A stretch of 64,000 nucleotides of DNA from Bacteroidota bacterium (GTDB lineage: Bacteria > Bacteroidota > Bacteroidia > Palsa-965), in contig VBWE01000001.1 in the NCBI GenBank assembly GCA_006218065.1, positions 191,063 to 255,062 on the forward strand, given 5' to 3'. The stretch's first letter is position 1, and every line of letters starts with the position of its first letter. Of the stretch, positions 18,405 through 40,017 are shown in pieces. Under the pieces are notes generated by a model. The model was not told the DNA's origin, did not search any database, and saw only the letters and a list, made by a program, of their open reading frames with translations. The position numbers and the translations under genes were made by a program.

Positions 18405-21400
18405 TTAATTCTGCGTTTGCAAAGCGCTGATGTATTCCTCCAACGTTTCGCTGATCTTGTCCATACTGAACTGGGCCAGCGGCGTCGGGTTGATGTTATA
18501 GTATTCCGGGTTGTTGTTTTTGCGCAGCGTATAAATATGCTGCTTCCCTTCTTCGAAACGCCCGATCGGGTCGATGGTCATCGTCAGGATCTGGTAATCG
18601 AAATTCTTCGCCAGTTCGTACAGCATGTCGAAGTTTTCGCCCAGGCCGGCCACTTCGTCGATGGTCATGAAGCGGATTCCTTTTTTCACCTTCCTGTTCT
18701 TTCCGCTCAGGCGGTCGCTGTCGATGATCGAGAGTCGCGCGATACAAAGCAGGGCGAGCATGGTGTAGTTCTGCCCGTTCGATCCCGGCGCATCCTCGCC
18801 CCGCGGTGTTTTGAGGCTCATCATCAGGTCGAAATACGATTTCGGGTTCGTCAGTTTTTTCACATCCGGCCGTACGTTCTTACCGTCGCTGTGCTCGAGG
18901 AAGGCTTTCAGGATGATCGCGTCGGCTCCTTCGTTTTCTGTTTCGAACATTTTGAACAGGCCCACGTTCTGCGCTTTCGCACTGATCTGCTTGTTCAGGC
19001 TGCGGATCCAGCTGATCGGGTAACCTTTCGAGGGTTCGAAATTGATTTCCACGTAGTGTCCGCCGGAGATTTTATTCTGCTTGAAGAACTCGCGCATATC
19101 TTCCACGCGGTCGCGGTATTCGCTGTACACTTCTTCGATGCGCGAGAAAATACCCGAGATGATCTTCAGCTTGTGGTCGTTGATCTCGTTCATCTTCTGG
19201 TTGATGATGCGCAGGTGTTCTTCCACATCGCTGGCCAGGTCGCTTTCCACGTTGTCCGGGTTCTTGATGATTTTCGGAAGCATGCACTCGGCGAGCGTGA
19301 GGAAATCGTACAGGTGATTGTACTTGAGTCTTTCCTCGTCCACCAGGTTGAAATTCGGATCACGCATGATCTGGTCGAAATTCGACTCGTAGGTTTTCTG
19401 CGTGGTGATCACGGAAACTTTGGCTTTGTTCACCACGCTTTCCTCGATCTGTTCCGTGATATCCGCCGGGTTGAACTCGCCTACTTTTTCCGTGTACTGT
19501 TTATGCGATTCGCGGTAGCGCGCTTCGAGCATCGGCGCCTGTTCCATCAGGCCCACCAGGCGTGCATCGAGCCCGCCCTGCTTGCGCGAGATTTCCTGCA
19601 GGCGCTGCGTAAAGCCGTTCCAGAGCATCTTGCTGCTGCTGCCGTGTTCTTTTTCTATCGCCTTGATTTCGCTGTTCACTTTCACCTGGAACTGCTCACC
19701 TTCCGAAGGACGCATGTAATTGGCTACGTCTTTCAGCCAGTCGGCAAAACGTTCGTCGAGCGACTTGCGCTCCTGCTGGAAATTTTTCAGTTCGCGTTCT
19801 CTTTCTGGAAGGTCGGCGGTGTTGATCTGCTTGATCAGGCTTTCGATCGCCTGTTCGTTGCCCTGCGAGTTGGTGATGATGTCGTCGGCCTCTTTCAGTT
19901 TCTGCAAAGCGTCTTCCCACGACTTTTTCGCTTCCTCGTACTGCAGGCGCAGGTTGTTCTGCGGATTCACATAAAGATCGATCGTATTTTCGAATTCTTC
20001 TTTTGTGAACAGCAGCGTTTCATCCGGGTTGAATGACGCGTATTCCTTGCGGTGCATCCACACGTCGGCCACCTGCTGGTTGTAACCGAATTCGTACAGC
20101 AGGTCGCGGAGATGACGAACGTTGTTCCGTTCCGCCGTGAGTTTTTCCAGTTCCTTTTCGATCGTGTCCCCGTATTTTTTCAATTCGGATTCGATCGTTT
20201 TCGGGTTATTGAATATCTGTTTGGGCACCAGCGAAACGAATTCGCGCACGCCGCCCATATCGATCCAGATTCCTTTGTCTTCTTTTTCCGCGACTTTGAT
20301 GTTGAAGATTTCTTCCGGCTTCGGGATGTACCGGGCAAACTCGCGGTAATCTTCCGGCTTGCTCGTGGTCAGTCCCTTGAAATGCATCAGGATCGATTCC
20401 TCTTCGCGCGTCAGTTTTCCCGCGTTGCTGATCGCCCACTGCACAACCGAATCCGTGCTTTCGCTGTCGAAAAGTGGCAGGATCTGTTCGAGGCGAAGAA
20501 TATCCGTATCGAGTTGGTCCGTCAGCCCGTCATACTCGGCCTGCGCCAGCCGGTAATCCTGCGACCAGGTTGAATTCATGAACTCGTCGTAAATCGCTTT
20601 ATCGACCAGGTACTGTTCGAGTTCTTCGAATTTCTGTTTATCGCGGGCGGTTTTTTCCTGGCTGTAAAACTGGGCGCGGATGCCGTCCACTGTTTTGTAG
20701 GTGCGCAGCCAGCTTTCCACCACTTTCACTTTCGTCCATTTCGCGCTGGCTTCGTCGTAATCGGCCTGCGAGATCTGGCAGCCTTTTTCGTACGAGGCGC
20801 GATTCTTCTCGGCGAATTCGCGTTGTTTCTTTTTGTTCTCGAGATCGCGTTCGAGGCGTTCGTGTTCGCCGGTGATTTCATCCAGCTCGCGTTCGATCGA
20901 TTCGATGTTCAATTCGTTCACGCGTTTCTCGAACATGATCTGCTGCAGGTTCACATACGCTACTTCTTTCTGCGTGCGGACCAGGTCGCGGCTTACCACG
21001 TCCTTATGCTGGAACGCGTAGCCCGTTTCGAGGAACAACGAACGCTGCAAAGCCTTGTCTCTTTTCTTCTTGTCTTCGAGCAGGGCCAGCAGGCGATCCT
21101 TCTTCAGTTTGACGAGTTCGTACACGCGCGCGCGGCGCTTGTATTCTTCGTGCGCATCTTCGATTTCCTTTTTGCGCTTTTCGTATTCCTTGTTCTGATC
21201 GTCGTCGTTGGCGAAAAGGAAATTTTTCAGGTCATCGCTTTTCGAACCGATGCCTTTGCCGCGTGAAAACGACTGGAGGATCTGCGAAAAGGTTTTGAGT
21301 TTCTTTTCGTCCTGGCTCAGGTCGATACCGAGAATCTCGTTCCCGTAAAGCAGCCGGTGAAATTCGGCCGTACGGTTGTAAAAATGTTTCAGCTGGTAGC

Positions 21401-21890
21401 CGCGTTTCTCCACCACTTCCTTCATCTGGTCGATCGGCAGGATCTGTTTGTTGTACAGGAAATCCCGGTACAGCAGGAAACCGTCCATCGGTTCAAGACA
21501 GAGATCGGTGTCCGGGTTGAAATCGCCGCCCTTCTGGATGATGAACGGGTAAACGGCGCGGCTGTTCGTCTGGATATGAATGCCGACCAGGATGAATTTG
21601 CCTTTGTCCACTTCCACGTTCGCGAACGTATAGCCGAGCCCGGCCACCGCATCGTGCTTGAGCACCATGCCTTCGATGGTTCGTTTTTCGCTCGTCATAA
21701 CTTCGGTTGACGATTCCCAGTATTCTTTCTTCGCCACGAAGATGAGCTGGAGCAGGTCGGCGATGACCGATTTCCCCGATCCGGAACCGCCTGTGAAGTC
21801 GGTACGCAGCGGGTGCAGCAGGTAGTCGCAGTTGTTGTGGTAGATGATGCCTACCGTGGAAAGGGAGAAGATGCGCGGATATTGTTTCAT
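18405..21890 (-). CDS. SMC-like ATPase of MukB/MksB/JetC type (condensin / Wadjet large subunit)
   Basis: 1161 aa. The N-terminal Walker A, FSLSTVGIIYHNNCDYLLHPLRTDFTGGSGSGKSVIADLLQLIF, follows the MukB N-terminus pattern (FRSLTLINWNGFF...TTLSGGNGAGKSTTMAAF). Long coiled-coil middle section. C-terminal Walker B FMTIDEVAGL and a signature-like SNGQN. Confidence 0.7.
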   Translation of the reverse strand: MKQYPRIFSLSTVGIIYHNNCDYLLHPLRTDFTGGSGSGKSVIADLLQLIFVAKKEYWESSTEVMTSEKRTIEGMVLKHDAVAGLGYTFANVEVDKGKFILVGIHIQTNSRAVYPFIIQKGGDFNPDTDLCLEPMDGFLLYRDFLYNKQILPIDQMKEVVEKRGYQLKHFYNRTAEFHRLLYGNEILGIDLSQDEKKLKTFSQILQSFSRGKGIGSKSDDLKNFLFANDDDQNKEYEKRKKEIEDAHEEYKRRARVYELVKLKKDRLLALLEDKKKRDKALQRSLFLETGYAFQHKDVVSRDLVRTQKEVAYVNLQQIMFEKRVNELNIESIERELDEITGEHERLERDLENKKKQREFAEKNRASYEKGCQISQADYDEASAKWTKVKVVESWLRTYKTVDGIRAQFYSQEKTARDKQKFEELEQYLVDKAIYDEFMNSTWSQDYRLAQAEYDGLTDQLDTDILRLEQILPLFDSESTDSVVQWAISNAGKLTREEESILMHFKGLTTSKPEDYREFARYIPKPEEIFNIKVAEKEDKGIWIDMGGVREFVSLVPKQIFNNPKTIESELKKYGDTIEKELEKLTAERNNVRHLRDLLYEFGYNQQVADVWMHRKEYASFNPDETLLFTKEEFENTIDLYVNPQNNLRLQYEEAKKSWEDALQKLKEADDIITNSQGNEQAIESLIKQINTADLPERERELKNFQQERKSLDERFADWLKDVANYMRPSEGEQFQVKVNSEIKAIEKEHGSSSKMLWNGFTQRLQEISRKQGGLDARLVGLMEQAPMLEARYRESHKQYTEKVGEFNPADITEQIEESVVNKAKVSVITTQKTYESNFDQIMRDPNFNLVDEERLKYNHLYDFLTLAECMLPKIIKNPDNVESDLASDVEEHLRIINQKMNEINDHKLKIISGIFSRIEEVYSEYRDRVEDMREFFKQNKISGGHYVEINFEPSKGYPISWIRSLNKQISAKAQNVGLFKMFETENEGADAIILKAFLEHSDGKNVRPDVKKLTNPKSYFDLMMSLKTPRGEDAPGSNGQNYTMLALLCIARLSIIDSDRLSGKNRKVKKGIRFMTIDEVAGLGENFDMLYELAKNFDYQILTMTIDPIGRFEEGKQHIYTLRKNNNPEYYNINPTPLAQFSMDKISETLEEYISALQTQN

Positions 21891-22034
21891 CGTAGTGTAC
21901 TTCGTAAGTATGTGTTACTTCGGGCGATGCAGTGCATCGCCCTTACTTTTTGGTTCATCCTGTGAGGTGGATCACCCTTATTCTGGTTCCAGAGTAGGGG
22001 CGATCTGCCTCCGGCGGATCGCCCTATGTACTCC

Positions 22035-22724
22035 TTAGTCTTCTTCTATCGTAGTCAGGCCGCCGGTGCGTTCTTCCATCATGTTGCTTTCGTCGATCAG
22101 GCGGTCGATGTGGTGGATTTCGTACGAGTACATGGTGAACAGGCGCTCGATGGAGGGCATGATTTCGAACAGTTCCTTGTTGCGGTGATCGAAGTGAATC
22201 CAGCCGAGGCGTTCGAATTCCTTCAGCGAGTTGCGGATCCATTCATCGATTGTGTTTTCATCGATCTCCGTCGCTTCTTTCTCGCGGCGTTTGGCGAAGA
22301 GGTTGTAGATATAGCTCTTGTACTCTTCGTTGCTCTTCACCAGCTGGATAAGATCCGGCACGTAGATGTCGTTAATGAAGTATTTATCGATGCGGTGTAT
22401 CTTCAGCAGCAGGATGCCCATGAGCGTATGTTCGGGCGACAGTTTTTTGGACCGCGTTTTCACGATACCGCGGCTCTCGTCGTCCAGCTCGAGGTAGAAG
22501 TACCGCGTATAGTCCGTGCCTTTGGTTACCAGCGCGACCTTGAACAGGTTTTTGTAATACATCCGCAGCTCGTCTTCGAACTTCTCGAGGAAATTGAACA
22601 GGTCGGTCTGGTGCGGAAAGTTCTGGACATGCTGCCCGCTTTTCAGCAGGAAGTCGAGCTCCGCAAAAAGATTTTCAGCTTCGTCCGTTTCTAGGAAGCT
22701 GTATTTTTTATTTGCATTTTCCAT
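22035..22724 (-). CDS. MksE/JetB-like (MukE-family kleisin-associated) subunit candidate
   Basis: 229 aa, acidic and helical. Sits between the F-like and B-like genes in the canonical F-E-B order. Start overlaps the upstream gene by 34 nt. Confidence 0.45.
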   Translation of the reverse strand: MENANKKYSFLETDEAENLFAELDFLLKSGQHVQNFPHQTDLFNFLEKFEDELRMYYKNLFKVALVTKGTDYTRYFYLELDDESRGIVKTRSKKLSPEHTLMGILLLKIHRIDKYFINDIYVPDLIQLVKSNEEYKSYIYNLFAKRREKEATEIDENTIDEWIRNSLKEFERLGWIHFDHRNKELFEIMPSIERLFTMYSYEIHHIDRLIDESNMMEERTGGLTTIEED

Positions 22725-24088
22725 ATACCTACGTTCGGTTGTTTGGGATCGAGTTGAAATTCTTCTTTGACGGTTACTTCAAACCCGGGTTTGGATGAAA
22801 ATTCTTTGAGTACCTGCGTGGCTTCCTTGATCGCGGTTTCGAGATCGTTTTCCTTGTGCAGGATTTTGTAGAAGTATGATCCGAAATCTACTTTTTTCTT
22901 TTTCTCCAGGTCGTCTGAAATGACTTTGAACCAATGGTCGATGCGCTTTTCGCGTTCGAGCTGCGCGCGACGGTCATCCGCCTGGCGTTTCAGATCCGCT
23001 TCGTCCCAGATCATGTCGCGGACTTCCACTGCCGGCGGCTCGAGCAGGGCCAGGTAGTCCACCATAGTCAGGCGCGAACGGTCGCTGTACACATCTTTCT
23101 GCGTGATGTTGTCCGGCAGGAAAACGTCCAGCTCATGCACTTTACGGTCTTTCAGTTTCTTGGTGCGGTAGAATTTACTCTTGCTGTTTTTCAGCAGGTA
23201 GATCAGGAAGGACTCGATCTTGCGGTCGAATTCGCGTTTCTCGAAATCGTTGTACAGCTTGTTGATCTTCGGCTTGATGCGGTCGATCGTATGGCTGACG
23301 TTGATCAGGCGCTGCTCGATGTCCTTGAAGAAATTCCGCACATCGCGTTTCATCTCGCGGTATTCGAACTGTTCGGTCAGCGCAGCATCGTCGAGCAGTT
23401 GCTTGATATCGTCCTTGGAAGAAAACGCGCTCGAAAGTTTGTCGGCCTGCTCTTTGATCTTGTCCAGCAGCGCTTCGCAGCCGATCAGCAGTTCGCGGAA
23501 ATTATCCGATTCGTTCTTCACCAGGTCGTTCAGCTGCTCGATGGTATCCTCGATCTGCGAATGCAGTGCGCGGAGCTGGCTGCTGATATCATTTTTGTTC
23601 TTGAAGAACTGCGTATGGTACCAGTGGCGGAAATCGTCGATGGTCTCGAGTTTGTGCCCGAGCAGGAGGACCAGGTCGTTGAAGGTTTTCTGGATCTGCG
23701 AGGGATTGATCGCAGTGTGAACTTCTTTCTCGAGCAGGTCGCAGAAATTTTCGGCATAGGTACTCAGCTGGTACGACTTTTCCTCGATGTTCTTGTCGAG
23801 GAAGTGGCGCAGCAGGCGGTGCAGCGTTTCATCGTACTTCTGGCTTTCCTCCCCGCGGCCCGAAACCTGGCCCAGTTCGGCGAAAACCTGCTTGATCGTT
23901 TCCACGATGATACGCTCGGGAAATGCCCGGGGAATAGTGCCGGCGCGGACTTTCTGGAAAAGCGTAAGGACGATGAGTCCGTCTTCCTGCCTGGGAACCA
24001 GCAGGTTGTATCGTTCGCGCAGCAGCCTTGGAAAGTGGAGCGGGCGTCCGCCCCGCACGGCCGGCGGAATCAGTGAAAGTTGTTCCAT
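22691..24088 (-). CDS. MksF/JetA-like (MukF-family kleisin) subunit candidate
   Basis: 465 aa, largely helical. First gene of the three-gene operon ending in the MukB-like ATPase. Assignment is by size, order and context. Confidence 0.45.
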   Translation of the reverse strand: MEQLSLIPPAVRGGRPLHFPRLLRERYNLLVPRQEDGLIVLTLFQKVRAGTIPRAFPERIIVETIKQVFAELGQVSGRGEESQKYDETLHRLLRHFLDKNIEEKSYQLSTYAENFCDLLEKEVHTAINPSQIQKTFNDLVLLLGHKLETIDDFRHWYHTQFFKNKNDISSQLRALHSQIEDTIEQLNDLVKNESDNFRELLIGCEALLDKIKEQADKLSSAFSSKDDIKQLLDDAALTEQFEYREMKRDVRNFFKDIEQRLINVSHTIDRIKPKINKLYNDFEKREFDRKIESFLIYLLKNSKSKFYRTKKLKDRKVHELDVFLPDNITQKDVYSDRSRLTMVDYLALLEPPAVEVRDMIWDEADLKRQADDRRAQLEREKRIDHWFKVISDDLEKKKKVDFGSYFYKILHKENDLETAIKEATQVLKEFSSKPGFEVTVKEEFQLDPKQPNVGIWKMQIKNTAS

Positions 24089-32731: not shown

Positions 32732-33739
32732 ATGAAGATTTCCGCCTCTATTTATTCCAATAAAAACGATTCGCTCGAACAGATCGTGAAAACGCTCGAT
32801 GCGCATTACATCGACTATTTTCATGTCGACTGTAACGACGATCCTGCCGTGTTCGGTGATATTGCGAAAATCCGCACACTGAGTAAAACGCCGGTCGACC
32901 TGCACATCATCAGCCGCACGCCCGAAAAATATTTCGACCTGCTGCGCCGCACGCCGGTGGAGTTCGTTACGTTTCAGTACGAAGAGCTCCCGGGAAAACT
33001 GGACGTTCCTGCCGATATCAGCGGGCGTCTTGGACTGGCCATCAGTTCGGATACGGAGATCGATGTTTTCGAACCGTACGCCGATCGTTTCGATTTCCTG
33101 CTGGTGATGGCCACCACGCCGGGTAAAAGCGGCGGCACCTTCAACAAAGAAAATTTCCGCAAGATCCGCCAGTTCAAAAACCGTTTTCCCGGCAAGCGCG
33201 TGCATGTGGACGGCGGCGTGAACGGCGAGGTTTCATTCATCCTGCGCAACATGGGCGTGTATGCTTCGGTTTCCGGTTCGTATCTTTTTAACGCGGAAAC
33301 CATCGGCCTGGCACTGCTCAACCTGAAAATGATCGAAAGCGAATCGCATTTCCAGGTGAAGGATTTTATGATGAGCCGGGAAGAAAGTCCGCTGCTGCCG
33401 CCATCAAAACGCGCGCTGGCCGACGTACTGCAAAGCATCGAAGATTACCGCGTAGGATTTACGATACTCACCGGCGAGTCGGGGAAACTCGAAGGACTGA
33501 TCAGCAATGCCGACGTGCGTCGCGGGCTGATCAAAAATCTCGGCAATCCTTCCGGCATCAGCGTGAGCGACATGACCAACCGCAACCCGGTTACCGTAAA
33601 TGAAAATGCGACCGTGCGCGAAATGCTGCGGCTGATCAAATCAAAACAATTCCCGATCACCTATCTCCCGGTGATCAATACCGATAACGAAGTTACCGGG
33701 ACCGTAACGTTCCTGAATCTTATCAAAGGCGAAGCATGA
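32732..33739 (+). CDS. Ribulose-phosphate-3-epimerase-fold sugar-phosphate enzyme fused to a C-terminal CBS pair
   Basis: RPE-barrel landmarks in order: ISASIYS (PSILSAD-like), HVDCND, DLHIIS, VTFQYE, GLAISSDT, DFLLVMATTPGKSGGTF (VNPGFGGQ-like), VHVDGGV. Two CBS motifs follow in the C-terminal 130 aa. Confidence 0.6.
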   Translation: MKISASIYSNKNDSLEQIVKTLDAHYIDYFHVDCNDDPAVFGDIAKIRTLSKTPVDLHIISRTPEKYFDLLRRTPVEFVTFQYEELPGKLDVPADISGRLGLAISSDTEIDVFEPYADRFDFLLVMATTPGKSGGTFNKENFRKIRQFKNRFPGKRVHVDGGVNGEVSFILRNMGVYASVSGSYLFNAETIGLALLNLKMIESESHFQVKDFMMSREESPLLPPSKRALADVLQSIEDYRVGFTILTGESGKLEGLISNADVRRGLIKNLGNPSGISVSDMTNRNPVTVNENATVREMLRLIKSKQFPITYLPVINTDNEVTGTVTFLNLIKGEA

Positions 33740-34734
33740 TTATTGAATTAAAGAATTCCGTGGCCGAAACACGCGCGCAGGAAATTGCACGCGAAGTAAA
33801 AGCATTCTGTATCCGCCACAACGGCCGGTTCGTGCTGATCACTTCTTCTTCCGACAAAGAAGCCGACAAACGTTTCGAAAGTGAATACGAACGCATCACC
33901 GTGCTTGCCGACGACATGCAGCTGAGCAGCCGGAAGTACATGAACGAAACGCGCGAGGTGAAAATCAACAACGTCACCATCGGCGGAAAAACGAATCATA
34001 CGCTGCTTATCGCCGGACCCTGCTCGGTAGAATCGGAAGAACAGATCGAACAGAGCGCCGCTTTGCTGAAAGAACTGGGTATTTCCACGCTCCGCGCCGG
34101 GGCTTTCAAACCGCGCACGTCGCCGTACACGTTCCAGGGCATGGGCATCGAAGGACTGAAACTGCTCGCCAAAATGCGCGAGAAACACGGACTGAATATC
34201 ATTTCCGAAGTGCGCGACGCCACGCAGGTGGAAGACGTGATCGAGTATGCCGACATCATCCAGATCGGCGCAAAATCCATGTACGATCACGGCATCCTGC
34301 GCCGCTGCGGAAAAACGAACAAGCCCGTGCTGCTCAAACGCGGTTTCGGCACCACGCTGCAGGAATTCGTGCAATGCGCGGAGTTTATTCTCGCCGGCGG
34401 AAATGAAAACGTAATTCTCTGCGAGCGCGGCATCCGCACGTTTGAAACCAAAACACGTTTTACGCTCGACCTTTGCGGTGCGGCGTACCTGAAAGAATAT
34501 ACGAACCTGCCGCTGATCCTCGATCCGAGTCATGCCATCGGGTATGCGTACGGCGTTCCGGATCTCGCGCGCGCCTGCACGGCCATGGGCTGCGACGGGC
34601 TGCTGATCGAAGTGCACCCGAACCCGGCGGTGGCCAAGTCGGACGCTTCGCAGCAACTGAACCACGACCAGTTCCGCACGCTGTCCAAATCGCTGAAAGC
34701 GGTGGCGGAATCGATCGGAAGAAAAATAATCTGA
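33736..34734 (+). CDS. DAHP synthase class I-beta / KDO8P synthase-family aldolase with an N-terminal ~65-aa ferredoxin-like extension
   Basis: LIAGPCSVESEEQ, KPRTSPY, ILCERGIRTFET, DPSHA family motifs. Overlaps the upstream gene by 4 nt. Confidence 0.75.
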   Translation: MIIELKNSVAETRAQEIAREVKAFCIRHNGRFVLITSSSDKEADKRFESEYERITVLADDMQLSSRKYMNETREVKINNVTIGGKTNHTLLIAGPCSVESEEQIEQSAALLKELGISTLRAGAFKPRTSPYTFQGMGIEGLKLLAKMREKHGLNIISEVRDATQVEDVIEYADIIQIGAKSMYDHGILRRCGKTNKPVLLKRGFGTTLQEFVQCAEFILAGGNENVILCERGIRTFETKTRFTLDLCGAAYLKEYTNLPLILDPSHAIGYAYGVPDLARACTAMGCDGLLIEVHPNPAVAKSDASQQLNHDQFRTLSKSLKAVAESIGRKII

Positions 34735-34933
34735 GCTGAAAGTATCTTTTAAATTCCTCCTGGTTATTTTTACAGGACGGTCGTCGGAATAGTTTTTTGT
34801 ACCAGTTCGGAGTTGGGAGCTTTGAGTTCGGAGTTTTTGCCCGGATAGTTACCGGAATAAAACTCCGAACTCAAGCGAAGCGCACTCCCAACTCCGAACT
34901 GGTAAACCAGCTTAGCTTTTACACATTACACTA

Positions 34934-35590
34934 ATGACCTTGTACCAGAAAAACATTTCTTTTTTGCTCAAAAGCCGCGGCATCCGCATCGAGGAAATCG
35001 GCGGCGTATTTCCTTCGGCGGCCAAAGAACCTTCGCTGGGCGAACTGATCATGATTGCCGATCATTTCGGCCTGCCGCTCGATCTTTTGCTCCGCAGCGA
35101 TCTGAAAGCGCGGGCGGCAGCGCGAAGCAAAAAAATACGACTGCTGGTCATGGACATCGACGGCGTGCTTACCGATGCCGGCATGTATTATACGGAAAAC
35201 GGCGACGAGCTGAAAAAGTTCAACGCCAAGGACGGCCTGGCCATCCGCGATATCAAAAAGAAAAAGATCAAAACAGGCATCATCACGCATGGGTTTAATA
35301 TGAACCTGATCAGGCGCCGTTCCGAACGTTTGCATATCGACCTGCTCGAGGTTTCGCAGAAACCGAAACTCGCCACGCTGAACGCCTGGTGCAAAAAACT
35401 GAAAATCTCGATTGACAACGTAGCCTATATCGGCGACGACATCAACGACAGCGATGTGCTGCGGGCCGTGGGTTTCAGCGCCTGCCCGGCCGATGCGGTG
35501 GATGCCGTGAAAAACATGTGCCACGTGGTACTTACAAAAAAAGGCGGCGAAGGTTGCGTGCGGGAAATGATCGATCATTATCTCTCATGA
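34934..35590 (+). CDS. kdsC: KdsC-family HAD phosphatase (3-deoxy-D-manno-octulosonate-8-phosphate phosphatase-like) with a ~50-aa N-terminal extension
   Basis: LVMDIDGVLTDAGMYY, VAYIGDDINDSDVLRAVGFSACPADA; similar to E. coli KdsC motifs. Confidence 0.7.
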   Translation: MTLYQKNISFLLKSRGIRIEEIGGVFPSAAKEPSLGELIMIADHFGLPLDLLLRSDLKARAAARSKKIRLLVMDIDGVLTDAGMYYTENGDELKKFNAKDGLAIRDIKKKKIKTGIITHGFNMNLIRRRSERLHIDLLEVSQKPKLATLNAWCKKLKISIDNVAYIGDDINDSDVLRAVGFSACPADAVDAVKNMCHVVLTKKGGEGCVREMIDHYLS

Positions 35591-36381
35591 CCCCCCGCAT
35601 ATTTTTCCTGCTGCTGTTTTTCCTGTTCTCTGCAATCACATTTGCACAGAAGCGGCCCAACCTTATTCCCTACCGTAAAGGCGATCTCTGGGGTTATGCC
35701 GACTCCACGAAAAAAATCATCATCACGCCGAAATATGATCGTTGCTTCCCGTTCGTCAACGGGAAAGCGCTCGCAGAAACCAAAGACAGTAAGTTTATCC
35801 AGATCGACAGTACGGGGAAAATCGTGAAGACTTTTACTTACAAGCTGCACGAATACATGCGTGACGGAATGCTCAAAATAAGCGTCAACTATTCCGAAGA
35901 AGGAATCATAGATATTTCGGGTGCAATTGTAATGCCTCCGAAATATCTTTCCATTGAAATACTCGGCCCGGATTCTTTTGAAGTAACCTTACCCGGGAAA
36001 AAAGGGACAATAAACCGTGCAGGAAAAGAACTGGTAAAATTCATTCCGTTCGAAACGGATATGATGGATACGCCGCTTACGATAATGCCTTCAGGTGATT
36101 GTGATAAACCGTGTTTCTGGTCTTCTTTCAGCGAAGGCATGGCCGTTGTGGCGCATAAAGGAACTTTCGGTTACGCCGATACCAGCCGGCGCGTTAAAAT
36201 TTCCTGCAAATACCAGATGGCCGAATCTTTTTTACACGGGCTGGGTCGCGTGGTTTTCGAAAAGCCGGGACAGGTAATTACAAAACCGTACAAAGATGCA
36301 AACGGAGAGCAGGTCGTAACGGCGGTTATAATGCTCGACGGTTACGTGGACCGTTTCGGAAATGAATACTGGGAAGAATAA
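35587..36381 (+). CDS. WG-repeat (KWG) secreted protein
   Basis: Signal peptide. Repeated DLWGYAD / TFGYAD motifs. ATGA overlap with the kdsC stop. Confidence 0.55.
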   Translation: MTPRIFFLLLFFLFSAITFAQKRPNLIPYRKGDLWGYADSTKKIIITPKYDRCFPFVNGKALAETKDSKFIQIDSTGKIVKTFTYKLHEYMRDGMLKISVNYSEEGIIDISGAIVMPPKYLSIEILGPDSFEVTLPGKKGTINRAGKELVKFIPFETDMMDTPLTIMPSGDCDKPCFWSSFSEGMAVVAHKGTFGYADTSRRVKISCKYQMAESFLHGLGRVVFEKPGQVITKPYKDANGEQVVTAVIMLDGYVDRFGNEYWEE

Positions 36382-38460: not shown

Positions 38461-40017
38461 TCAGAAAAATGATTTATACATGATTCGCAGGCTGATGATG
38501 ATGACCACCACGCCGACCAGCAGCATAGCCGTGCGTACATTCAGTTTTTTAGCCAAAAACGCGGCGAAAGGAGCTGCAATCGTTCCACCGATCACAAGAC
38601 CGATGATCACCTGCCAGTGACTGAGCCCGATGATCGTGGCAAAAGTAAAAGAACTTGCCAGCGCCACGAAAAATTCTGCGAGGTTGACCGACCCGATCGT
38701 GTAACGCGGATTTTTTCCCCAGGCAATCAGCGTGGAAGAAACGATCGGTCCCCAGCCGCCGCCGCCTATGGAGTCGAGGAATCCGCCCGTGGCGGCAAGC
38801 GGGATGAGTCTTTTTATTTTTTTCCGGACGCGGTCTTTGCGCAGGGCTTTCGCGATGATCACCACCCCGAGAAACAGCGTATAGGCCGCCACAAAAGGTT
38901 TAATGTAGCCGTTGTACTCTTCGAACGAGGAAAGCACGTAGGCACCGACGATCGCGCCGACGACACCGGGGATAAGCAGGTTGCGGAAAAGTTTGGTGTT
39001 CACGTTCCCGAATTTCAGGTGCATCAAACCGGAAACGCCGCTTGTAAAAACTTCGGAAGCATGTACGCTCATACTCGCCACGGCCGGTGAAATACCGAAT
39101 GACATGAGGAATGTCGTAGCGCTCACGCCGTAGGCCATACCGAGCGCACCGTCGATCATGCCCGCGATAAATCCGCCGAGAATCCAAAGCAGGATGGTCC
39201 GATCGAACGACGACCATACGCTCACGGCCGCGTCACCGATACTTCGCAGCGGGATGTACGACAGCAGCAGGTGGCCGGTAATCATCAAAGCCAGCGCCGC
39301 CAGGCCGTTTATCGCGACTTTTTTCAGCAGCTTGTTCCGTTTCTGCGCAGACGTTTGCGGCAACACGAGCGTGGCGGTTACCTGGTTCAGCCGTTCCACC
39401 TTCTGTTTGAAATCGCCGCGCAGCCTTTCGCGCAGCGCGTTCAGGTTGGCGATCAGGTCGTGCGTACCGTCGGGCAGGTCTTCCTGCAGCAGTTCACGGA
39501 TGCGTTTGGCCAGCGTCGGTGATTTGCCGTTGGTGGAGATCGCGATTTTGAGATCGCCTTTTTTGACAACGGACGAAAGATAAAAATCGCAGAGTTCCGG
39601 TTTGTCGGCTACGTTCACGAGCAGGCCTTTTTCGTTGGCGGCTTTTTTTATTTTTTCGGCCAGGGGAATATCATTCACGGCAACAATCACCAGGTCGGCG
39701 GTATCGAGATCTTCTTCGCGGAAAACCCGGTTATGAATATGCAGGTTGAACAGGTGCCGGCTGATCTGCACGATCTCTTCATGGATGCCGGGCGCCACCA
39801 GCGTGATTTCGGCAGCGGGACTGTTGTTCAGCACCGCGTTCAGTTTTTCGAGCGCCACATTTCCGCCGCCTACAATGAGCAAACGCAGCTGTTCCAGTTT
39901 CAGGAAAACCGGGAACAGCGTATTGCCGGCGGAAGCCGGAGTGATTTCCGTCTCCACCTGCTCGTTCTGCACATGATTTCCCGGTGTGTTGCTCATGGTT
40001 TGCAATTCGCGCAGCAA
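38461..40017 (-). CDS. Fusion protein: sirohaem-synthase N-domain (precorrin-2 dehydrogenase / sirohydrochlorin ferrochelatase, CysG-N/Met8-like) joined to a TauE/SafE (DUF81, TSUP) sulfite-exporter-family membrane domain
   Basis: N-terminal Rossmann motif LLIVGGGNVALEKL, similar to the CysG N-terminus. The C-terminal ~300 aa are polytopic with the glycine-rich TSUP repeats (GGGGWGPIVSS…). Confidence 0.7.
   Translation of the reverse strand: MLRELQTMSNTPGNHVQNEQVETEITPASAGNTLFPVFLKLEQLRLLIVGGGNVALEKLNAVLNNSPAAEITLVAPGIHEEIVQISRHLFNLHIHNRVFREEDLDTADLVIVAVNDIPLAEKIKKAANEKGLLVNVADKPELCDFYLSSVVKKGDLKIAISTNGKSPTLAKRIRELLQEDLPDGTHDLIANLNALRERLRGDFKQKVERLNQVTATLVLPQTSAQKRNKLLKKVAINGLAALALMITGHLLLSYIPLRSIGDAAVSVWSSFDRTILLWILGGFIAGMIDGALGMAYGVSATTFLMSFGISPAVASMSVHASEVFTSGVSGLMHLKFGNVNTKLFRNLLIPGVVGAIVGAYVLSSFEEYNGYIKPFVAAYTLFLGVVIIAKALRKDRVRKKIKRLIPLAATGGFLDSIGGGGWGPIVSSTLIAWGKNPRYTIGSVNLAEFFVALASSFTFATIIGLSHWQVIIGLVIGGTIAAPFAAFLAKKLNVRTAMLLVGVVVIIISLRIMYKSFF

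What the first reader, a model, noticed from the sequence alone, without database searches (positions are those of the whole stretch)
32732..35590. Unusual sugar-phosphate trio: RPE-fold::CBS fusion, DAHPS/KDO8PS-family aldolase, and KdsC-like phosphatase
Three overlapping or adjacent plus-strand genes. The first combines a ribulose-phosphate-3-epimerase TIM barrel (all RPE landmark segments present, with diverged residues) with a CBS pair. Canonical KDO pathway isomerases (KdsD/KpsF) instead use SIS plus CBS. The aldolase has a class I-beta DAHPS-like core with an N-terminal ferredoxin-like extension. The third gene is a clear KdsC homolog. An RPE-fold enzyme supplying a pentulose or hexulose phosphate to a PEP-aldolase and a KdsC phosphatase would be a non-canonical 3-deoxy-ulosonic acid route (KDO-like or heptulosonate-like). 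Alternatively the aldolase is simply the aromatic-pathway DAHPS and the co-localisation is a coincidence.
Basis: partly seen in the sequence, partly recalled or inferred. Interest (0 to 1): 0.5.

Follow-up and report, generated by a model that had tools for sequence, protein, structure and literature searches.

The report
Non-canonical Kdo-like sugar-acid gene trio
Three adjacent genes, kept together across many Bacteroidota and rebuilt next to sugar-activating enzymes in surface-polysaccharide clusters of other phyla, most likely encode an undescribed route to a Kdo-like sugar acid; its aldolase is annotated everywhere as the first enzyme of aromatic amino-acid synthesis.

Summary
Three plus-strand genes encode an RPE-fold barrel fused to a KdsD-type CBS pair, a type I-beta DAH7PS-family aldolase with a ferredoxin-like N-domain, and a KdsC-family phosphatase.

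The co-localisation is not a coincidence. The RPE::CBS gene is followed by the aldolase in 45 of 45 Bacteroidota loci and 13 of 13 distant loci where sequence continues. The two proteins co-evolve (r = 0.90). A phosphatase follows in most loci, but its type changes between clades (KdsC-type or HAD-IA).

In Acidobacteriota, Elusimicrobiota and unassigned contigs, the pair sits with a CMP-sugar cytidylyltransferase and an RraA-like protein inside O-antigen or capsule clusters. One cytidylyltransferase is a bona fide KdsB and one is fused to a KdsC domain.

All pair-linked aldolases pass DAH7PS models. All replace the invariant PEP-binding Arg with Lys, and none keeps the GRR loop.

Best reading: a dedicated isomerase/epimerase, aldolase, phosphatase route to a Kdo-like 3-deoxy-2-ulosonic acid. 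The product (8-carbon Kdo or a 7-carbon homologue) is unknown. I could not check whether these genomes also hold a separate aroG, kdsA or kdsD. No literature on the family was found.

The parts
32732..33739 (+). RPE-fold::CBS-pair protein (335 aa). The barrel covers about aa 1-200 (32732-33331). The CBS pair covers aa 207-332 (33350-33727). Predicted metal/catalytic tetrad: His31, Asp33, His58, Asp160. Phosphate loops: PGKSGG 130-135, DGG 160-162, SGS 181-183.
33736..34734 (+). DAH7PS-family (type I-beta) aldolase, 332 aa, start overlapping the upstream stop (ATGA). Ferredoxin-like N-domain aa 1-~60 (33736-33915). Barrel aa ~63-326 (33922-34713). Metal ligands by homology: Cys96, His266, Glu292, Asp303. 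The KPRTS motif (125-129) is kept. Subfamily signature: QIGAKSMYD 176-184 (Lys180, Tyr183) and DPSHAIGYAYG 263-273 (no GRR).
34800..34904 (.). 105-nt near-perfect palindrome in the aldolase-kdsC spacer. It is an insertion specific to this genome's operon. Its role is unknown (attenuator, processing site or repeat element).
   Evidence: the repeat finder found 20-nt arms at 100% and 23-nt arms at 87%. RNA MFE is -83.4 kcal/mol, z = -9.2. It is unique in the window. Most of the other Bacteroidota loci have only 2-70 nt at this junction.
34934..35590 (+). KdsC/YrbI-family HAD phosphatase (218 aa). N-terminal extension aa 1-65 (34934-35128), poorly conserved, with a helix-turn-helix-like pattern. 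HAD core aa 66-217 (35129-35584) with DIDGVLTD 74-81 and GDDIND 167-172.
   Evidence: NCBIfam TIGR01670 scores 140.8 against a cut-off of 107. PDB best hit is the B. thetaiotaomicron KDN9P phosphatase at 118 bits; E. coli KdsC scores 95 bits. Alignment of 39 orthologues. No Pfam hit for the extension.

Best explanation
The three genes form one operon-like module that makes a free Kdo-like 3-deoxy-2-ulosonic acid in three steps that follow the gene order.

1. The RPE-fold::CBS enzyme uses RPE-type chemistry (a metal-stabilised enediolate) to convert a pentose-phosphate-pathway sugar phosphate into the aldose phosphate the aldolase needs. It stands in for the SIS::CBS isomerase KdsD, whose type of CBS pair it carries. 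The most likely product is arabinose 5-phosphate, made from ribulose 5-P or ribose 5-P.
2. A DAH7PS-lineage aldolase condenses that aldose phosphate with PEP.
3. The KdsC-type phosphatase removes the phosphate.

CMP activation is done by a cytidylyltransferase. It is encoded elsewhere in Bacteroidota and inside the cassette in other phyla.

Shown here: gene order, tight coupling, domain identities, conserved catalytic residues, co-evolution, the association with phosphatases, cytidylyltransferases and glycan clusters, and a distinct aldolase subfamily signature.

Inferred: the substrates, the product, and whether the CBS pair senses the CMP-sugar end product.
For: - Synteny in Bacteroidota. 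RPE::CBS is followed by the aldolase in 45 of 48 genome loci. The other three contigs end there. A KdsC-type gene follows in 39 of 43 loci with sequence available. No flanking gene is conserved.
- Synteny in distant family members (23-34% identity). The aldolase is adjacent in 13 of 13 loci.
- Co-evolution. Pairwise identities of the two proteins correlate over 51 loci (r = 0.90, Mantel p = 0.001).
- Non-orthologous displacement of the phosphatase. It is HAD-IA in L051, L052, L054 and L061. It is KdsC-type in L062 and in Bacteroidota. It is fused to the cytidylyltransferase in L063.
- Cytidylyltransferases. A CTP_transf_3 enzyme lies in the cassette in L052, L060, L061, L062 and L063. The L052 enzyme passes the KdsB equivalog model (195.6 against a cut-off of 155.2).
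- Glycan context. The cassettes lie among Wzt/Wzm, Wzx/Wzy, glycosyltransferase, rml and dideoxyhexose genes.
- Aldolase signature. Lys replaces the PEP-binding Arg of the G-A-R motif in 51 of 51 linked aldolases and in the 120 closest database homologues. Tyr or Phe replaces Gln183. GRR is never intact. That Arg and the GRR loop are present in every solved I-beta DAH7PS whose sequence over these motifs I examined. The Arg was seen in Ape, Pfu, Geobacillus and Listeria, and GRR in Ape, Pfu and Tma. GRR is also present in KDO8PS (role of the Arg from PMC6362186).
- No shikimate gene lies next to the pair in any locus.
Against: - The aldolase passes curated DAH7PS models, keeps KPRTS, lacks the long KDO8PS beta7-alpha7 loop, and keeps the ferredoxin-like domain that carries Tyr/Phe feedback in T. 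maritima. On sequence alone it looks like an E4P enzyme.
- In Bacteroidota the context is housekeeping, with no cytidylyltransferase nearby. The aldolase is very conserved (60-90% identity), as expected for a central enzyme.
- Known RPE-family enzymes epimerise ketoses. None is known to make an aldose phosphate.
- I could not establish whether these genomes also carry a canonical kdsA/kdsD or a second DAH7PS.
- There is no experimental datum for any family member.
Confidence: 0.68

Rival explanations
1. Same pathway logic but a 7-carbon product. The RPE-like enzyme is an aldose-phosphate 2-epimerase acting on erythrose 4-phosphate, which is ribulose 5-phosphate without its C1 hydroxymethyl. 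It would give D-threose 4-phosphate. The DAH7PS-type aldolase would convert that to 3-deoxy-D-lyxo-heptulosonate 7-phosphate, the one-carbon-shorter homologue of Kdo8P with the same ring stereochemistry. Dephosphorylation and CMP activation would follow.
For: - The aldolase keeps the tetrose-phosphate motif KPRTS and the short beta7-alpha7 loop of DAH7PS, not the KDO8PS features.
- The RPE-like domain keeps both Asp residues that RPE uses for a 1,1-proton transfer.
- The stereochemical analogy (E4P to Ru5P, D-threose-4-P to Xu5P and A5P) follows from the structures of these sugars.
- From memory, not verified here: DAH7PS enzymes accept threose 4-phosphates in vitro.
- A KdsB-like cytidylyltransferase could plausibly take a Kdo homologue.
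Against: - I know of no 3-deoxy-lyxo-heptulosonate in Bacteroidota glycans.
- The L052 cytidylyltransferase scores as a true KdsB, which fits Kdo itself more simply.
- The KdsD-type CBS pair suggests functional replacement of an A5P isomerase.
- This reading rests purely on chemical inference.
Confidence: 0.2
2. The aldolase is simply the housekeeping shikimate DAH7PS. RPE::CBS is a CBS-regulated ribulose-phosphate 3-epimerase paralogue co-expressed to balance erythrose-4-phosphate supply. The phosphatase is an unrelated LPS (Kdo8P) or repair phosphatase. E. coli has a precedent in the aroK-aroB-...-rpe-gph operon (from memory).
For: - The aldolase exceeds the DAH7PS model cut-offs, is 51-53% identical to the solved archaeal DAH7PS (42-57% across the solved I-beta structures), and has a T. 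maritima-like FL domain.
- RPE's catalytic tetrad and phosphate loops are intact.
- The context in the window is housekeeping: homoserine dehydrogenase and sulfate assimilation.
- All public annotations call the aldolase DAH7PS.
Against: - The same pair sits with cytidylyltransferases and phosphatases inside O-antigen or capsule clusters in other phyla.
- The phosphatase is displaced non-orthologously, and once fused to the cytidylyltransferase. That shows the phosphatase acts in the same pathway.
- The aldolase subfamily alters an otherwise invariant PEP-site Arg and the GRR loop.
- RPE::CBS fails the rpe equivalog model by a wide margin (71 against 212.6).
- No shikimate gene is linked in about 60 loci.
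- The characterised Bacteroidales DAH7PS are C-terminal chorismate-mutase fusions (PMC8408635).
Confidence: 0.1

Closest known systems
Canonical CMP-Kdo pathway KdsD (KpsF/GutQ) - KdsA - KdsC - KdsB, including the kdsD-kdsC adjacency and the capsule paralogues KpsF/KpsU of E. coli
   Same: The same logic and order of steps: make an aldose phosphate, condense it with PEP, dephosphorylate, CMP-activate. The first enzyme has a C-terminal CBS pair of the KdsD type. The phosphatase is of the KdsC family. In L052 a true KdsB lies next door. As with KpsF/KpsU, copies lie in polysaccharide clusters.
   Different: The catalytic domain of the first enzyme is an RPE-fold barrel, not a SIS domain. The aldolase belongs to the DAH7PS I-beta lineage (KPRTS, short loop 7, often an FL domain), not to KdsA. 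In several clades the phosphatase is HAD-IA, and an RraA-like protein is added.
Thermotoga maritima-type DAH7PS (type I-beta with an N-terminal ferredoxin-like regulatory domain; PDB 1RZM)
   Same: Same two-domain architecture (TM-score 0.86). The metal ligands Cys/His/Glu/Asp, the KPRTS motif and most PEP-site residues are kept. It passes NCBIfam PRK08673.
   Different: Lys replaces the invariant PEP-binding Arg (QIGAR to QIGAK). Gln becomes Tyr three residues later. The GRR loop after DPSH is never intact. It is never linked to shikimate genes and is always linked to RPE::CBS.
Ribulose-phosphate 3-epimerase and D-allulose-6-phosphate 3-epimerase (PF00834)
   Different: Only about 23% identical. 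The MDGHFVPN loop after strand 2 is absent. A CBS pair is fused. It scores far below the equivalog cut-offs. Its genomic partner is a PEP aldolase, which implies an aldose-phosphate product.
Bacteroides thetaiotaomicron KDN pathway (KDN-9-P synthase BT1714 and KDN-9-P phosphatase BT1713)
   Same: A Bacteroidota ulosonic-acid route with a synthase followed by a C0-type HAD phosphatase. BT1713 is the closest solved relative of the window's phosphatase (118 bits).
   Different: That synthase is a NeuB-family enzyme using mannose 6-phosphate, and no RPE-like enzyme is involved. The window's phosphatase misses the KDN9PP equivalog cut-off (156.6 against 180) and has Phe where BT1713 has Glu56.

Membership tests
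Ribulose-phosphate 3-epimerase (RPE, TIGR01163 / PF00834) | (beta/alpha)8 ribulose-phosphate-binding barrel of RPE type | tested here: met
Ribulose-phosphate 3-epimerase (RPE, TIGR01163 / PF00834) | His-Asp-His-Asp metal and acid/base tetrad, plus Gly-rich phosphate loops | tested here: met
   His31, Asp33, His58, Asp160, PG-SGG and DGG are invariant or nearly so in 88 family representatives down to 23% identity. The residue roles are taken from knowledge of RPE structures, not tested here.
Ribulose-phosphate 3-epimerase (RPE, TIGR01163 / PF00834) | Curated equivalog score and the RPE-specific MDGHFVPN loop / Met cushion | tested here: not met
   TIGR01163 scores 71.4 bits against a cut-off of 212.6. 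NF004076 scores 93.4 against 165. After HVD the sequence is CNDDP, and no residue there is conserved in the family. Only one of the three cushion Met residues (Met126) is kept.
KdsD/KpsF/GutQ arabinose-5-phosphate isomerase | N-terminal SIS catalytic domain | tested here: not met
   No SIS hit in Pfam or NCBIfam. The N-terminal domain is an RPE barrel.
KdsD/KpsF/GutQ arabinose-5-phosphate isomerase | C-terminal CBS pair of the KdsD type | tested here: met
KdsD/KpsF/GutQ arabinose-5-phosphate isomerase | Ru5P to A5P isomerase activity | not testable with these tools
   Needs an enzyme assay or complementation of an E. coli kdsD gutQ mutant.
DAH7PS type I-beta | Curated model scores, metal ligands and the KPRTS motif | tested here: met
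   PRK08673 scores 375.3 against a cut-off of 335. TIGR01361 scores 326.8 against 267.75. Cys96, His266, Glu292, Asp303 and KPRTS 125-129 are present. The PDB best hits are DAH7PS at 238-276 bits, against at most 96 bits for KDO8PS.
DAH7PS type I-beta | Invariant PEP-binding Arg of the Q-I-G-A-R motif, and the G-R-R loop after DPSH | tested here: not met
   Lys180 occurs in 51 of 51 RPE::CBS-linked aldolases and in the 120 closest homologues. GRR is intact in 0 of 51. The Arg is present in Ape, Pfu, Geobacillus and Listeria, and GRR in Ape, Pfu and Tma. The Arg's role is taken from PMC6362186.
DAH7PS type I-beta | Function in the shikimate pathway (linkage to aro genes; sole DAH7PS of the genome) | tested here: inconclusive
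   No aro gene is adjacent in about 60 loci.
KDO8P synthase (KdsA) | Curated model scores, the KANRS motif and the extended beta7-alpha7 loop | tested here: not met
   NF003543 scores 126.4 against a cut-off of 242. TIGR01362 scores 118.1 against 314. The protein has KPRTS, not KANRS. The loop after DPSH has DAH7PS length.
KDO8P synthase (KdsA) | Genomic association with KdsC, KdsB and an A5P-supplying enzyme | tested here: met
   A KdsC-type phosphatase lies downstream in 39 of 43 Bacteroidota loci. KdsB or other CTP_transf_3 enzymes are in the cassettes of L052 and L060-L063.
KdsC / YrbI C0-type HAD phosphatase | Subfamily model score and HAD motifs (DxDG nucleophile, GDDxND) | tested here: met
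   TIGR01670 scores 140.8 against a cut-off of 106.95. The motifs DIDGVLTD and GDDIND are conserved in 39 orthologues.
KdsC / YrbI C0-type HAD phosphatase | Equivalog-level identity as a Kdo8P phosphatase (or KDN9P phosphatase) | tested here: not met
   NF007019 KdsC scores 134.1 against a cut-off of 208. NF058599 KDN9PP scores 156.6 against 180. The substrate is therefore undetermined.

The most novel reading that the evidence does not exclude
The RPE-fold::CBS proteins may be a new enzyme activity: an aldose-phosphate 2-epimerase working by RPE-type proton transfer. With their dedicated DAH7PS-lineage aldolase they would make 3-deoxy-D-lyxo-heptulosonate from erythrose 4-phosphate via D-threose 4-phosphate. 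That compound is the precursor skeleton of Dha, a sugar acid whose biosynthetic enzymes and activated form are still listed as unknown (PMC3355719, PMC12168206). If so, a large set of Bacteroidota and other bacteria would carry a previously unseen 7-carbon Kdo homologue on their surface, and thousands of '3-deoxy-7-phosphoheptulonate synthase' annotations would be wrong in substrate stereochemistry.
Probability: 0.18. Interest if true: 0.85.

Novelty: new variant of a known kind. Interest (0 to 1): 0.62.

Why it matters
- **A second solution to Kdo-type synthesis.** If the reading is right, the first committed steps have a second evolutionary solution. An epimerase-fold enzyme stands in for the SIS isomerase, and a recruited DAH7PS-lineage aldolase stands in for KdsA.
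- **Breadth.** The arrangement is widespread in Bacteroidota, and it is a mobile cassette in O-antigen or capsule loci of Acidobacteriota, Elusimicrobiota and others.
- **Annotation.** All 37 of the 120 closest aldolase homologues that carry a source name are labelled '3-deoxy-7-phosphoheptulonate synthase', and the RPE::CBS partner is labelled 'CBS domain-containing protein' or 'ribulose-phosphate 3-epimerase'. Metabolic reconstructions would wrongly credit aromatic biosynthesis and miss a surface-sugar pathway.
- **Enzymology.** The family is a natural experiment on how DAH7PS and KDO8PS specificity is set (Arg to Lys in the PEP site, a rebuilt loop 7). It is also a candidate new reaction for the RPE fold.
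- **Testability.** Every claim can be tested directly with three recombinant proteins and existing E. coli mutants.

Tried and rejected
- **Literature.** Ten full-text searches for an RPE::CBS protein, DAHPS-KdsC linkage, alternative A5P isomerases and DAHPS in polysaccharide clusters found nothing on this family.
- **Paralogues.** I searched the window and all fetched loci for kdsA, a second DAH7PS, rpe, CBS/SIS proteins and kdsB by tblastn. None was found. That covers only about 0.6 Mb, not whole genomes.
- **Whole-genome check.** Testing for separate aroG, kdsA or kdsD was not possible.
- **Metagenome scan.** A 7-sequence alignment worked.
- **'Second Arg of GRR is always lost.'** I first held this. 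The count showed Arg271 present in 6 of 51, so the claim was narrowed to 'GRR never intact'.
- **Role of the QIGAR Arg.** From memory I had this Arg binding the E4P phosphate of the neighbouring subunit. PMC6362186 lists it as a PEP-binding residue, and I corrected this.
- **AIRS-family gene.** The gene that follows the pair in L058, L064 and the P0174 contig looked like a possible pathway kinase. Its sequence looks to me (from memory of Bacteroides purM; not run against any profile library) like the Bacteroidetes-type PurM, so I treat it as a neighbour only.
- **NTP_transferase gene.** The gene downstream in two Cytophagales loci belongs to the sugar-1-phosphate nucleotidyltransferase family, not to a CMP-ulosonate synthetase.
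- **Wider window annotation.** One look-up was not on record and one hit only a short contig.
Full report
**What is there.** The window holds three plus-strand ORFs: 32732-33739 (335 aa), 33736-34734 (332 aa) and 34934-35590 (218 aa). The first two overlap by ATGA. The third is followed, again with an ATGA overlap, by a WG-repeat gene. The source is an uncultured Bacteroidota MAG. The identical protein P0001 is on a 417,702-bp NCBI contig. The neighbours are housekeeping genes: GrpB, a methyltransferase, homoserine dehydrogenase and a sulfate-assimilation/siroheme cluster.

**Gene 1.** Pfam finds the ribulose-phosphate 3-epimerase family over residues 2-186, covering the whole profile (E 1.4e-22), plus a CBS domain.
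- NCBIfam's rpe equivalog scores only 71 bits against a cut-off of 212.6.
- The C-terminal 125 residues match the CBS region of KpsF/KdsD better than any other CBS protein (E 1.6e-10, against 5.8e-5 for IMPDH).
- An AlphaFold model built on 65 family members has pLDDT 91.5.
- Across 88 full-length representatives of 50%-identity clusters, down to 23% identity, the following stay invariant or nearly so: Ser6, His31, Asp33, Asp56, His58, Glu84, Met126, PG-SGG-F and DGG. The SGS motif is less strictly conserved.

From knowledge of RPE structures, these residues are the metal/acid-base tetrad and the phosphate loops. The RPE-specific MDGHFVPN loop is missing and nothing conserved replaces it. The protein is therefore an active RPE-fold enzyme, but not an RPE orthologue.

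**Gene 2.** It passes the curated DAH7PS models (PRK08673 375 against 335; TIGR01361 327 against 268) and fails the KDO8PS models (at most 126 bits).
- Solved DAH7PS of A. pernix, P. furiosus and T. maritima score 248-276 bits. KDO8PS score at most 96 bits.
- The model has a beta-alpha-beta-beta-alpha-beta N-domain and superposes full-length on T. maritima DAH7PS (TM 0.86).
- The metal ligands (Cys96, His266, Glu292, Asp303) and KPRTS are present.

**Gene 3.** It is a YrbI/KdsC-family HAD phosphatase (TIGR01670 140.8 against 107). It misses both the KdsC and the KDN-9-P phosphatase equivalog cut-offs. Its closest solved relative is B. thetaiotaomicron BT1713. It carries a ~65-aa N-terminal extension with no Pfam match. 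The extension is poorly conserved and is absent in Marinoscillum.

**Is the co-localisation meaningful?** A scan of one genome per GTDB species with the RPE::CBS protein gave 48 loci. They come from Crocinitomicaceae, Vicingaceae, other Flavobacteriales, Cytophagales (Reichenbachiella, Marinoscillum, Cyclobacteriaceae), Bacteroidales, Marinilabiliales, Chitinophagales, Saprospiraceae and Sphingobacteriales.
- The aldolase follows in 45 loci, usually with overlapping or nearly abutting genes. In the other three the contig ends.
- A KdsC-type gene follows the aldolase in 39 of the 43 loci with sequence available.
- Clustering all flanking ORFs shows that nothing else is conserved.

I then looked at distant family members (23-34% identity) through a metagenome scan and context look-ups. 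In 13 of 13 loci where sequence continues, the aldolase is adjacent. In L062 it is separated from RPE::CBS by a cytidylyltransferase and a small 42-aa ORF. Over 51 loci the pairwise identities of the two proteins correlate (r = 0.90, Mantel p = 0.001). The pair is a co-inherited unit.

**What the distant loci reveal.** Outside Bacteroidota the pair sits in a recurrent cassette of cytidylyltransferase (CTP_transf_3), RraA-like protein, RPE::CBS, aldolase and HAD phosphatase. The cassette lies inside O-antigen or capsule clusters.
- L061 has Wzt/Wzm, a GT1 and sugar epimerases.
- L062 has GT4s, Wzy, Wzx and an MptE-like protein.
- L063 has rml genes and giant glycosyltransferases.
- L057 has CDP-dideoxyhexose genes.
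- L052 has methyl- and sulfotransferases.
- L060 is from an Acidobacteriota MAG.

The phosphatase changes family. It is HAD-IA (beta-PGM-like) in L051, L052, L054 and L061. It is KdsC-type in L062. In L063 a KdsC domain is fused to the cytidylyltransferase. Keeping the step while swapping the enzyme is the classic mark of a real pathway step. A phosphatase and a CMP-transferase have no place after DAHP in the shikimate pathway.

In L052, which lacks the RraA-like gene, the cytidylyltransferase passes the KdsB equivalog model (195.6 against 155.2). The CBS pair of the adjacent RPE::CBS scores 74 bits on the KdsD model.

**The aldolase subfamily.** All 51 RPE::CBS-linked aldolases, and the 120 closest database homologues, read QIG(A/T/S)K(S/A)M(Y/F). 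Solved I-beta DAH7PS read QIGARN.QN (A. pernix, P. furiosus, Geobacillus, Listeria). None has the GRR that follows DPSH in A. pernix, P. furiosus and T. maritima DAH7PS and in E. coli, Haemophilus, Burkholderia and Vibrio KDO8PS. The replaced Arg is described as a PEP-binding residue conserved in all five reference DAH7PS (PMC6362186). These changes mark a distinct functional subfamily. They do not by themselves identify the substrate.

**Mechanism proposed.** Gene order equals step order.
1. The RPE-fold enzyme supplies an aldose phosphate.
2. The aldolase condenses it with PEP.
3. The phosphatase frees the ulosonic acid.
4. A cytidylyltransferase activates it.

The RPE chemistry (deprotonation next to a metal-bound carbonyl, reprotonation from the other face) could yield an aldose phosphate in two ways. 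These are inference only.
- 2-epimerisation of ribose 5-P to arabinose 5-P. These are the des-hydroxymethyl analogues of the allulose-6-P/fructose-6-P pair handled by AlsE.
- 2-epimerisation of erythrose 4-P to D-threose 4-P. These are the analogues of Ru5P/Xu5P.

A KdsD-like Ru5P to A5P isomerisation is also conceivable. I favour Kdo (A5P) because of the KdsD-type CBS pair, the true KdsB in L052 and the KdsC-type phosphatases. The DAH7PS-like tetrose pocket keeps the 7-carbon homologue, 3-deoxy-D-lyxo-heptulosonate, alive as an alternative. The biosynthesis of its diacid Dha is still unassigned in plants (PMC3355719; PMC12168206).

**What remains open.** I could not test whether pair-bearing Bacteroidota also have a canonical kdsA/kdsD or a second DAH7PS. 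The characterised Bacteroidales enzymes are C-terminal chorismate-mutase fusions (PMC8408635). No cytidylyltransferase lies near the trio in Bacteroidota. The role of the RraA-like protein is unknown. Its family comprises 4-hydroxy-2-keto-acid aldolases, and ulosonic acids are 4-hydroxy-2-keto acids, so a retro-aldol epimerisation is one possibility. No paper on this family was found in ten searches.

**Verdict.** The trio is best read as a new variant of the Kdo-type ulosonic-acid pathway, built from non-orthologous parts. It is widespread and systematically mis-annotated, and its product is undetermined.

Noticed in passing
window 34800-34904: A 105-nt near-perfect palindrome lies in the spacer between the aldolase and the phosphatase gene. 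RNA MFE is -83 kcal/mol (z = -9.2). It has no T-run and is unique in the window. Most other Bacteroidota loci have only 2-70 nt at this junction, so it looks like an insertion (repeat element, or a processing or attenuation hairpin).
   Followed up: partly
window 34934-35128: The KdsC-family phosphatase has a ~65-aa N-terminal extension with a helix-turn-helix-like pattern and no Pfam match. It is present but poorly conserved in most Bacteroidota orthologues and absent in Marinoscillum.
   Followed up: partly
window 35587-36381: A WG-repeat (PF14903) gene starts with an ATGA overlap on the phosphatase stop codon. It is probably co-translated with the trio in this genome. It is not a conserved neighbour elsewhere.
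   Followed up: partly
L051 617-1255; L054 473-1105; L057 5361-5999; L060 10813-11436; L061 2891-3517; L062 10647-11282; L063 12029-12655: An RraA-like (PF03737) protein of about 210 aa is a recurrent member of the cassette outside Bacteroidota. In four of those loci (L060-L063) a divergent cytidylyltransferase lies beside it (PseF model 48-65 bits in L060-L062). It is absent from the window's trio and from L052, where the cytidylyltransferase is a true KdsB. It may modify the ulosonic acid.
   Followed up: partly
L063 10845-12032: A single 395-aa protein fuses a CTP_transf_3 cytidylyltransferase to a KdsC-type phosphatase domain, directly after the aldolase.
   Followed up: no
window 38461-40017 (minus strand): A 511-518-aa protein combines siroheme-synthase N-terminal domains (NAD_binding_7, Sirohm_synth_M) with a TauE/SafE-type membrane domain. 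It sits inside a sulfate-assimilation cluster with PAPS reductase, a uroporphyrin methyltransferase and sulfite reductase. This is an unusual fusion.
   Followed up: no
window 18405-24088 (minus strand): A MukB-like protein of 1161 aa is followed by MksE-like and further ORFs. This is an MksBEF-type condensin-like cluster.
   Followed up: no
L024 8050-8955 and L031 8028-8933: In two Cytophagales loci the phosphatase is missing. A 301-aa NTP_transferase-family protein, a peroxiredoxin and an SDR follow the aldolase instead.
   Followed up: partly
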